Shown here: positions 2,486-2,519 of the stretch, in pieces
How positions within the stretch are numbered: the first letter of the stretch is position 1
Layout of the letters: every line of letters starts with the position of its first letter
Translations under genes and position numbers: made by a program
Notes under the pieces: generated by a model
The model's input: only the letters and a program-made list of their open reading frames with translations
What the model was told of the DNA's origin: nothing
Databases searched by the model: none
Origin: a virus
Taxonomy: Duplodnaviria > Heunggongvirae > Uroviricota > Caudoviricetes
Strand: one strand, 5' to 3'
DNA: 7,585 nt
Virus record (IMG/VR): IMGVR_UViG_2698536372_000007
Span: 1 to 7,585 of that record

Positions 2486-2519
2486 GGCATGCTGTTTACT
2501 AGACAGTAAAAAGCATGCC
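2486..2519. promoter_or_regulatory. 15-bp inverted repeat with one mismatch and 4-bp spacer (GGCATGCTGTTTACT-agac-AGTAAAAAGCATGCC); candidate protein-binding palindrome or RNA stem-loop
   Basis: Read directly. No U-tract follows on either strand, so not a canonical intrinsic terminator. It sits at the boundary between the AT-rich cassette and the tfa remnant. Confidence 0.3.

What the first reader, a model, noticed from the sequence alone, without database searches (positions are those of the whole stretch)
2486..2519. 34-bp near-perfect palindrome at the cassette / tfa-remnant boundary
GGCATGCTGTTTACT-agac-AGTAAAAAGCATGCC has 14 of 15 arm positions complementary. It could form a long RNA stem-loop on either strand but has no U-tract, so it is not an intrinsic terminator. 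Its position at the composition boundary raises the possibilities of a recombination or insertion-site scar, a binding site, or part of a small RNA.
Basis: seen in the sequence. Interest (0 to 1): 0.4.

Follow-up and report, generated by a model that had tools for sequence, protein, structure and literature searches.

The report
Fossil phage attachment-site arm beside espK
The 34-bp palindrome is real, but it is not a cassette-insertion scar: it is the conserved centre-piece of a leftover arm of the attachment site of phages that integrate into the potB gene, carried to this prophage together with the effector gene espK.

Summary
The palindrome at 2486-2519 is confirmed: 14 of 15 arm positions pair, and about 0.7% of random windows contain one as good. 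It lies inside a 218-bp module (2361-2578) that forms the integrase-distal end of lambda-type prophages integrated in potB. In O157:H7 the same espK + module abuts potB directly. In espK-less prophages a ykgJ gene replaces espK but the module stays.

The module ends in the 12-bp crossover core (TGAATAAGAAGG), of which the window keeps 7 nt. The real cassette/tfa boundary therefore lies in the att core, about 60 bp right of the palindrome. The same arm is joined at its core to two other prophage right-end or tail-fibre targets elsewhere. This points to integrase-mediated prophage-into-prophage events.

In relatives the palindrome is a perfect 14-6-14. Its blocks GGCATGC and TTTAC are invariant in Escherichia, Citrobacter and Kosakonia, always 52-53 bp from the core. 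The spacer and arm positions 8-9 vary freely.

Its native role is unproven. I favour a binding site for a dimeric accessory protein at the position of lambda's Xis/Fis sites. An RNA stem-loop on int/potAB transcripts is the main rival. In this window it is an orphaned relic.

The parts
2486..2519 (.). The 34-bp palindrome. It is a mutated copy (T->G at 2494) of a conserved 14-6-14 dyad, GGCATGCTTTTTAC-N6-GTAAAAAGCATGCC.
   Evidence: presence and significance. (conservation: perfect in espK-less relatives; blocks invariant across three genera).
2361..2578 (-). A 218-bp relic of the integrase-distal (P) arm of the attachment site of potB-integrating lambda-type prophages, read from the core at 2578 leftwards.
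   Evidence: Homology to the potB-adjacent prophage ends L002, L004, L005, L006 and L010 covers exactly 2361-2578. The 121-bp part is present in 684 E. coli genomes.
2572..2578 (-). CCTTCTT, the remnant of the 12-bp crossover core (TGAATAAGAAGG on the minus strand). It includes the core-type half-site GCCTT.
   Evidence: The core was defined as the sequence shared by the empty K-12 potB/potC site and both prophage junctions. A sister locus, L017, keeps CCTTCT-ATTCAG.
2552..2572 (-). Phage-supplied surrogate 3' end of potB (GCA ACA GAA ATA GAT AAT TAG), now orphaned.
   Evidence: In O157:H7, O113:H21 and other lysogens the annotated potB ORF ends at this stop codon.
2531..2543 (-). IHF-consensus-like site (ATTCAAAAGGTTA, 1 mismatch to WATCAANNNNTTR) between the core and the palindrome.
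   Evidence: Read from the sequence. The columns are partly conserved across genera. A consensus match only; binding was not tested.
2462..2474 (-). IHF-consensus site (AATCAAACAGTTG, a perfect match to WATCAANNNNTTR).
   Evidence: Found at the same offset (+109 from the core) in all three arm types.
2444..2453 (-). Candidate integrase arm-type site, TTTTGGAGAA.
   Evidence: The same motif occurs three times in tandem (11-13 bp period) in the integrase-proximal arm. It occurs once at +131 in all distal-arm types.
2361..2387 (-). The first 9 codons of a ykgJ-family moron gene (ATGAGCAATCCTAATCCATGCATGACG). The espK cassette replaced the rest.
   Evidence: Alignment with the ykgJ-carrying arms. 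Pfam CxxCxxCC hit for the intact gene. Homology to K-12 ykgJ starts at the ATG.
828..2189 (-). espK, the type III effector gene that travels with the arm relic.
   Evidence: RefSeq annotation of identical loci.
2581..2718 (+). 3' remnant of a lambda-type tail fibre assembly gene (tfa), the partner to which the att core was joined.
   Evidence: tfa homology starts at 2581. Annotated as a tfa pseudogene lacking its N-terminus.
2800..2859 (-). The 3' 60 nt of tRNA-Ser (serT). This is the att junction between this prophage and the next one in tandem. The tRNA terminator hairpin is at 2767-2792.
   Evidence: The window matches L001 up to 2859, and the tRNA is annotated there at positions equivalent to window 2800-2887. 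ARAGORN finds no complete tRNA. Terminator scan.
3001..4020 (-). Integrase of the next, serT-type prophage. It is not the cognate integrase of the relic arm.
   Evidence: Pfam Phage_integrase only, with no lambda arm-binding domain. Annotation.

Best explanation
The palindrome is the conserved dyad element of the integrase-distal (P) arm of the attachment site used by lambda-Int-family prophages that integrate into the 3' end of potB.

In this window the arm is a fossil. It comprises, from the core outwards: a core remnant, a surrogate potB tail, an IHF-like site, the palindrome, a second IHF-like site, a candidate arm-type Int site, and a ykgJ 5' stub. This arm was carried along with espK when the right end of a potB-type prophage was joined, by a crossover at the att core, to the tfa gene of a serT-integrated prophage.

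Shown: the homology, the core, the junction position, the conservation pattern and the cognate integrase family.

Inferred: in its native setting the 14-6-14 dyad is a DNA site for a dimeric accessory protein of the recombination complex. It occupies the stretch between the two IHF sites where lambda carries its Xis/Fis sites. It would help to bend the arm so that arm-bound Int reaches the core.

In the window itself the dyad has no cognate integrase, no intact core and one arm mutation, so it most likely does nothing there.
For: Identity as an att arm:
- Window 412-2578 matches the O157:H7 espK-potB junction.
- Window 2361-2578 matches the potB-adjacent ends of espK-less prophages, including an Stx2a phage and Stx1a phages.
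- The 12-bp core TGAATAAGAAGG is shared by the empty site and both junctions, with the inverted core half-sites GCCTT/AAGGC.
- The cognate Int has the lambda arm-binding and catalytic domains and is 44% identical to lambda Int. The Xis matches the lambda Exc family at threshold.
- TTTTGGAGA repeats occur in both arms, and IHF consensus sites sit at fixed offsets.

Junction at the core:
- Arm homology ends at 2578 and tfa homology starts at 2581.
- The same arm is joined at or inside the core to an ssrA-prophage right end and to a tail-fibre (stf) gene elsewhere.
- The native ssrA-type target resembles the core.

For a DNA-level protein site:
- The 24 block positions are identical in all 12 distinct variants from Escherichia, Citrobacter and Kosakonia/Enterobacter, although the flanks cannot be aligned.
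- The spacer is always 6 bp but has 9 different sequences.
- The distance to the core is always 52-53 bp.
- Arm positions 8-9 vary and are unpaired in 5-7 of 12 variants.
- All 16 flank-anchored IMG/VR copies keep the blocks.
- A 12/14 half-site copy (GTAAAATGCGTGCC) sits in the integrase-proximal arm. It is the only match with at most 2 mismatches in 6 kb, and it lies in a block also conserved in the Kosakonia remnant.
- The dyad lies 59-92 bp from the core centre, between the two IHF-like sites. Lambda's P2 and P1 sites are centred at -106 and -138. From my recollection of the lambda literature, its Xis/Fis sites lie at about -58 to -95.
Against: - A second arm type (942 E. coli genomes) and a third arm type accompany the identical Xis and a near-identical Int, yet lack this palindrome. 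Each carries a different, shorter dyad at almost the same position. The palindrome therefore cannot be an obligatory sequence-specific Xis or Int site. A shared requirement for dyad symmetry as such fits a hairpin equally well.
- No binding protein was identified, and I know of no host factor with this consensus.
- Lambda Xis binds direct repeats, not inverted ones.
- Copies persist in integrase-less remnants between potB and potC in Kosakonia and Citrobacter. That could mean a host-level, non-recombination function.
- The cross-genus set was found with a pattern that fixed the blocks. It shows strong conservation where the element exists, not that the element is universal.
Confidence: 0.45

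Rival explanations
1. RNA stem-loop. The dyad acts on the minus-strand transcript that crosses the att site: int transcripts in the free phage, and potAB transcripts in the lysogen. There it would serve as a 3'-end barrier or processing hairpin. This would make it a sib/tI-like retroregulator of int, or a surrogate 3' stabiliser for the truncated potAB message 32 nt after the phage-supplied potB stop codon.
For: - The hairpin is strong on that strand: -17.7 kcal/mol here and -21.8 kcal/mol for the perfect form (z = -5.5).
- It lies across the core from int, as lambda sib does, and just after the surrogate potB stop codon.
- Three otherwise different arm types each have a dyad centred at +78 to +82.
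- There are a few pairing-preserving changes: TT/AA to AG/CT in C. braakii; C-G to U-A between types 2 and 3; and G.U pairs valid only on this strand.
- Copies persist next to potB in integrase-less remnants. In Kosakonia the palindrome lies between convergent genes and is followed by a second GC-rich hairpin.
Against: - Covariation is not significant. In type 1, 11 of 16 pairs never vary, and shuffles reach the observed values in both alignments.
- Twelve stem positions per arm are frozen in sequence across genera, with no compensatory change. Pairing at positions 8-9 is often lost.
- The exact 6-nt loop length and the exact 52-53 bp distance to the core are not needed by an RNA element.
- There is no U-tract.
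- Lambda's sib/tI hairpin lies outside the arm, beyond P1 at -146 to -195, and has a U-run. This dyad lies inside the arm.
Confidence: 0.3
2. Scar or target of effector-cassette insertion. The palindrome would mark where the espK moron was inserted or exchanged.
For: It lies near espK, and in two Citrobacter genomes the flanks on both sides of the palindrome differ.
Against: - The same module flanks ykgJ in prophages without any effector.
- The espK/ykgJ swap point is at 2361, inside the ykgJ reading frame.
- The tfa junction is at 2578, inside the att core.
- No copy was found at any other effector locus.
Confidence: 0.03
3. Target of a simple tyrosine recombinase (lox/FRT/dif/rox-like: about 14-bp inverted repeats around a short variable spacer), unrelated to the lambda-type Int.
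For: The 14-6-14 architecture, with invariant arms and a free 6-bp spacer, matches that class of site.
Against: There is one copy per element. No associated second recombinase was seen in the prophages examined. The fixed position inside a lambda-type arm is better explained by that arm.
Confidence: 0.05
4. Regulatory element or small RNA for espK in its present context, for example an operator or insulator about 300 bp upstream of the espK start.
For: It lies upstream of espK on the same strand. Two promoter-like sites lie between it and espK.
Against: The element predates espK at this position, because it is conserved with ykgJ cargo and in other genera. No Rfam family reaches threshold. I found no expression data.
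Confidence: 0.05

Closest known systems
Bacteriophage lambda attP P arm (P1-H1-P2-X1/X2/F-H2-core) and the attR site of a lambda lysogen
   Same: - The cognate integrase is a lambda Int homologue (44% identity, with an arm-binding domain), and an overlapping xis gene is present.
- The crossover core is flanked by inverted core half-sites.
- Tandem arm-type repeats lie in the integrase-proximal arm, and one lies at the outer end of the distal arm.
- Two IHF-consensus sites are in the distal arm.
- The dyad lies where lambda has its Xis/Fis sites. The arm sits at the tail-fibre/moron end of the prophage.
   Different: - Lambda has no long palindrome there, and its Xis sites are direct repeats.
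- The target is the 3' end of potB, with a phage-supplied replacement tail.
- Three interchangeable versions of the inner arm segment exist with the same Int and Xis.
- In this window the arm is truncated in the core and separated from its integrase.
Lambda sib / tI retroregulator
   Same: A hairpin on the int-sense strand, placed across the att core from int, so that it is separated from int in the prophage.
   Different: Sib/tI lies outside the arm (at -146 to -195 in lambda), has a U-run and is an RNase III site. This dyad lies inside the arm at +53 to +86 and has no U-run. RNase III cleavage is untested.
Prophage-in-prophage integration at effector-associated att sequences (Nakamura et al. 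2021, PMC8112680)
   Same: Att-related sequences sit next to type III effector genes at prophage ends. Prophage ends are joined through att cores, which spreads effector genes among prophages.
   Different: That paper describes attB-like sequences derived from yecE, ykgJ/ecpE and ompW. The potB-type arm and these tfa/stf/ssrA-end junctions are not mentioned there.
Simple tyrosine-recombinase sites (loxP, FRT, dif, rox)
   Same: Inverted repeats of about 11-14 bp around a 4-8 bp spacer, about 28-34 bp in all.
   Different: No dedicated recombinase, a single copy, and embedded in a lambda-type arm.

Membership tests
Arm of a lambda-type (Int-family) phage attachment site | Directly adjoins the crossover core, i.e. 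the sequence shared by the empty bacterial site and both prophage junctions | tested here: met
   The core TGAATAAGAAGG is shared by K-12 potB/potC and by the potB-side and potC-side junctions. The module ends in it, and the window keeps 7 of its 12 nt.
Arm of a lambda-type (Int-family) phage attachment site | Cognate tyrosine integrase with an N-terminal arm-binding domain, plus an excisionase | tested here: met
   In the related prophages: Arm-DNA-bind_1 (3.8e-21) plus Phage_integrase; 44% identity to lambda Int; Exc family at its cut-off. Not present in the window itself.
Arm of a lambda-type (Int-family) phage attachment site | Repeated arm-type motif present in both arms, and IHF-consensus sites | tested here: met
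   TTTTGG(A/G)GA occurs three times in tandem in the proximal arm and once at +131 in the distal arm. WATCAANNNNTTR lies at +109. These are motif matches only.
Arm of a lambda-type (Int-family) phage attachment site | Proteins bind these sites, and the arm is required for recombination | not testable with these tools
   Needs footprinting and recombination assays.
Intrinsic (rho-independent) terminator | G+C-rich stem-loop followed by a U-run | tested here: not met
   No U-run on either strand, and the scan does not call it.
Lambda sib/tI-type retroregulator | Hairpin downstream of int across the att core | tested here: met
   Position is inferred from joining the two prophage ends. The hairpin is stable on that strand.
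Lambda sib/tI-type retroregulator | Overlaps a terminator with a U-run, lies outside the functional arm, and is cleaved by RNase III | tested here: not met
   There is no U-run. The dyad lies between the IHF-like sites and inside the outermost arm-type site, whereas lambda's hairpin is beyond P1. RNase III cleavage could not be tested.
Conserved structured RNA | Significant covariation supporting the helix | tested here: inconclusive
   In type 1, 11 of 16 pairs are invariant. There is one double change in each of type 1 and types 2/3. The shuffle controls reach the observed values.
Rfam IS009 candidate sRNA | Score at or above the family's gathering threshold | tested here: not met
   84.2 bits against 117. 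The well-aligned part is the tfa coding remnant, and only 2501-2519 overlaps the palindrome.
Dispersed repeat (REP, MITE or IS end) | Many copies in unrelated genomic contexts | tested here: not met
   There are 1-3 copies per genome, and every context examined was the potB-type arm. All 5 matches among 185,579 species genomes are in potB-type contexts: potB adjacency was shown in 4 of them, while in C. braakii L029 the locus ended before potB could be checked.
Simple tyrosine-recombinase site (lox/FRT/dif-like) | Inverted recombinase-binding arms around a short spacer | tested here: met
   14-6-14, with invariant arms and a variable spacer.
Simple tyrosine-recombinase site (lox/FRT/dif-like) | A dedicated recombinase and paired sites | tested here: not met
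   No second recombinase is annotated in the prophages examined, and there is one site per element.

The most novel reading that the evidence does not exclude
The 14-6-14 dyad is an undescribed functional module of a lambda-type attachment site. It would be a site for an unidentified, genus-spanning dimeric factor, or a sib-like RNA element built into the arm. It can be swapped for two other dyad modules without changing Int or Xis. In addition, the potB-type integrase repeatedly inserted prophage ends into tail-fibre-region pseudo-sites of resident prophages, and this is how espK spread to the serT and ssrA prophages of non-O157 EHEC.
Probability: 0.3. Interest if true: 0.5.

Novelty: new member of a known kind. 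Interest (0 to 1): 0.33.

Why it matters
The result explains an odd feature next to a virulence gene as ordinary phage biology. espK did not arrive as a free 'cassette'. It sits on the right end of a potB-targeting prophage, and its attachment-site arm still marks its origin.

The break at the att core, seen with three different partners, gives sequence-level evidence for integrase-driven prophage-into-prophage joining. This is one route by which type III effectors move between prophages in EHEC.

The dyad itself is a clean, testable candidate for an uncharacterised accessory element of a lambda-type recombination site. It shows near-perfect conservation across genera, and two natural replacement versions exist that work with the same Int and Xis.

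Tried and rejected
- Intrinsic terminator: rejected, because there is no U-run.
- LexA box and other host-factor consensus sequences (TyrR, CpxR, NsrR, Fis, BirA and others), recalled from memory: none fits the spacing or orientation, and none was tested.
- Known RNA family: only a sub-threshold IS009 hit, driven by tfa. ARAGORN found no tRNA.
- Operator of the ykgJ moron: rejected. The region upstream of K-12 ykgJ has no such element, homology starts at the ATG, and other genera keep the palindrome without ykgJ.
- Dating the integrase-less Kosakonia remnant through DUF3828 homologues: failed, because the homologues in other Kosakonia species lie at other loci.
- Finding an attP-form (excised phage) contig: I found only one contig end, plus two tandem or attP-like junctions that carry the type-2 arm. 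The two 'phage' records with this Int are prophage cut-outs that include potC.
- Looking for the reciprocal junction (tfa 5' part + integrase-proximal arm + potB-type int) inside the serT prophage: none present.
- Covariation test of the hairpin: not significant.
- Literature on the potB att arm, or on transcript ends near espK/potB: nothing useful.

Full report
**1. Observation**

Positions 2486-2519 read GGCATGCTGTTTACT-AGAC-AGTAAAAAGCATGCC. Fourteen of 15 arm positions are complementary. Both strands fold as RNA into the full hairpin at -17.7 kcal/mol, with z about -5 and no shuffle folding as well. It is the only palindrome of this quality in the window, and 2 of 300 Markov-1 random windows contain one. 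No U-run follows it on either strand, and the terminator scan ignores it.

**2. Context**

The window comes from an EHEC-type E. coli chromosome with two lambdoid prophages in tandem at serT. The features, in order, are:
- tail-fibre C-terminus, 104-373 (+)
- a hypothetical gene, 490-765 (-)
- espK, 828-2189 (-)
- a tfa pseudogene ending at 2718 (+)
- the 3' 60 nt of tRNA-Ser, 2800-2859 (-), preceded by its terminator
- the integrase (3001-4020), exonuclease, dicB region and DicF of the next prophage

**3. What the palindrome belongs to**

The 121 bp around the palindrome occur in 684 of 5426 complete E. coli genomes. In O157:H7 the same espK plus this segment abuts the 3' end of potB, and window 412-2578 aligns to that locus.

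In prophages at potB that lack espK, a copy of window 2361-2578 at 80-96% identity again lies next to potB. These include an Stx2a phage of O113:H21, a mouse isolate, a swine isolate and seven Stx1a prophage records. In them a ykgJ-family gene takes the place of espK.

Homology between the espK-type and ykgJ-type ends stops at 2361, nine codons into ykgJ. So espK replaced ykgJ, and the 218-bp module is older than espK at this position.

**4. The module is an attachment-site arm**

I compared the empty K-12 potB/potC site with the two ends of the O113:H21 prophage. This gives a 12-bp common core, TGAATAAGAAGG, at the end of potB, flanked in the phage by the inverted half-sites GCCTT/AAGGC.

- The phage replaces the last potB codons with six of its own plus a stop codon (window 2552-2572, minus strand).
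- At the other end of the prophage lie xis and int, next to potC.
- The Int has the lambda arm-binding domain and the catalytic domain, and is 44% identical to lambda Int. The Xis matches the lambda Exc family at threshold.
- The motif TTTTGG(A/G)GA occurs three times in tandem, 47-80 bp from the core, in the integrase-proximal arm. It occurs once at +131 in the distal arm (window 2444-2453).
- A perfect IHF consensus lies at +109 (window 2462-2474), and a one-mismatch IHF consensus at about +30 (window 2531-2543).

The palindrome occupies +53 to +86 from the core edge, between the two IHF-like sites. This layout parallels lambda's P arm. Lambda's P1 and P2 sites are at -138 and -106. From my recollection of the lambda literature, its Xis/Fis sites fall at about -58 to -95.

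**5. The real boundary**

Arm homology ends at 2578, which is 7 nt into the core (CCTTCTT). tfa homology begins at 2581.

A sister locus (L017) reads CCTTCT-ATTCAG before TAGAT. The original joint was therefore probably the full core plus G, followed by small slippage losses.

The same arm is joined at the core to other partners:
- The right end of ssrA-integrated prophages (E2865, L018, L021, L025). The native target, ...TTTATTGCTCAG|AAGATGG, resembles the core.
- For the Stx1a-type arm, the C-terminal part of a side-tail-fibre gene (CCTTCTTAT|CCGTCAGG).

Three independent joints at the crossover core point to integrase-mediated recombination with pseudo-sites in resident prophages, followed by homogenisation. 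No reciprocal junction remains in the serT prophage. This fits the published picture of prophages integrating into prophages near effector loci (PMC8112680). It also fits potB being a known prophage site (PMC9997748).

**6. Conservation of the palindrome**

In espK-less E. coli arms the palindrome is a perfect 14-6-14, GGCATGCTTTTTAC-N6-GTAAAAAGCATGCC. The window/O157 lineage has one arm substitution and the Stx1a lineage has two.

I scanned 185,579 species genomes with the blocks fixed and with arm positions 8-9 and the spacer left free. By my estimate such a pattern would match about 0.07 times by chance. It found five matches: three Citrobacter species, Enterobacter sp. EA-1 and Kosakonia.
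- In four of them potB is adjacent, with the palindrome 52-53 bp from the core. In C. braakii (L029) the locus ended before potB could be checked.
- The flanks are otherwise unalignable.

Across 12 distinct variants, the blocks GGCATGC and TTTAC are invariant and the spacer is always 6 nt, with nine different sequences. Arm positions 8-9 vary and are unpaired in 5-7 variants. A flank-anchored scan that ignored the palindrome recovered the same 16 IMG/VR loci, all with intact blocks.

A 12/14 copy of one half-site lies in the integrase-proximal arm. It sits inside a block that is also conserved in the Kosakonia remnant.

**7. Complications**

- A scan anchored only on the potB end and the phage-supplied tail found three arm types.
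- Type 2 occurs in 942 E. coli genomes and accompanies the identical Xis and a near-identical Int. It has the same IHF-like and arm-type sites at the same offsets. Between them it carries a different 7-6-7 dyad (TGCCGTT-TAAGGT-AACGGCA), centred within 1-2 bp of the type-1 centre.
- Type 3 has yet another dyad.
- A few changes preserve pairing. Examples are AG/CT in C. braakii, C-G to U-A between types 2 and 3, and G.U pairs on the potB/int-sense strand. The formal counts are nevertheless not significant.
- The Kosakonia and C. pasteurii copies sit in 1-2.7 kb integrase-less remnants between potB and potC. I could not date these remnants.

**8. Mechanism**

Two readings survive.

(a) A DNA site for a dimeric accessory protein of the recombination complex. 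This is favoured by four things: the frozen block sequence, the free dinucleotide and spacer, the fixed spacer length, and the exact distance to the core across genera.

(b) An RNA stem-loop on transcripts that cross the att site: int in the phage and potAB in the lysogen. This is favoured by position-conserved but sequence-different dyads in the three arm types, and by persistence in remnants.

Lambda's own sib/tI hairpin lies outside the arm and has a U-run, so the dyad is not a member of that family.

I put (a) at 0.45 and (b) at 0.30. In the window itself the element lacks its integrase, an intact core and potB, and it carries a mutation. It is most likely inert there.

**9. Verdict**

The palindrome is real and non-random, and it is explained as part of a known kind of system. 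That system is a lambda-type att arm, here as a fossil that travelled with espK. The dyad element within it is uncharacterised and could repay experiments. Interest is modest.

Noticed in passing
window 7405-7456 (-): A full-length DicF sRNA gene (77 bits against a gathering score of 48) in the early-left region of the second prophage, next to dicB in identical genomes.
   Followed up: no
window 7241-7264 / 7375-7398 and 7251-7391 (-): A 24-nt inverted repeat (92% complementary, 110 nt apart). It coincides with a sub-threshold STnc100-like Rfam hit (37 bits against 47) just beside DicF.
   Followed up: no
window 2501-2672 (+): A sub-threshold Rfam IS009 hit (84 bits against 117). The well-aligned part is the conserved 3' coding end of tfa, so this 'sRNA family' appears largely to model tfa remnants.
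   Followed up: partly
window 2767-2859 (-): The 3' 60 nt of tRNA-Ser (serT) plus its terminator hairpin lie between the two prophages. This is the tandem-prophage att junction, and no complete tRNA is present.
   Followed up: partly
L117/L118 (E. coli 5CRE51), L055, L105, L122-L136: A second distal-arm type (942 genomes) and a third (L126) occur at potB with the same Int and Xis. Each carries its own shorter dyad at the same position as the palindrome.
   Followed up: partly
L009 1745-1758; L031 about 6425-6441 (-): The integrase-proximal arm holds GTAAAATGCGTGCC, a 12/14 copy of one palindrome half-site. It lies inside a block (AAGTGTTGTAAAATGCG) that is also conserved in the integrase-less Kosakonia remnant. 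Its meaning is unknown.
   Followed up: partly
L139 (E2865, ssrA prophage), L018/L021/L025, L015/L019, L140: espK (or the Stx1a-type arm) with the same att arm is joined at the core to other partners: the right end of ssrA prophages and a side-tail-fibre gene. The native ssrA-type target in O157 resembles the core.
   Followed up: yes
L031 (Kosakonia), L028 (C. pasteurii), L027 (Citrobacter sp.): Small integrase-less inserts of 1-2.7 kb between potB and potC keep the palindrome and the surrogate potB tail. Their cargo includes DUF3828, or YCII plus DUF1440 (yagU-like). In Kosakonia a second GC-rich hairpin follows the palindrome between convergent genes.
   Followed up: partly
L008 780-1109 vs K-12 ykgJ (L138 3854-4183): The phage moron next to the arm is a ykgJ homologue, 81% identical to chromosomal ykgJ exactly from the ATG. 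Published work derives another prophage-borne attB from the ykgJ/ecpE spacer, which hints at capture from that chromosomal region.
   Followed up: partly
window 2424-2452 (-): GGAGAA-CGUUUUUUC-UUCUCC followed by CUUUU, overlapping the candidate arm-type site. This is a weak terminator-like hairpin just outside the arm, at the position analogous to lambda tI. It is present only in the espK and Stx1a lineages.
   Followed up: no
window 3045-3066: A short palindrome, TTGTTTTACGATCGTAAATCAA, inside the 3' end of the serT-type integrase gene.
   Followed up: no
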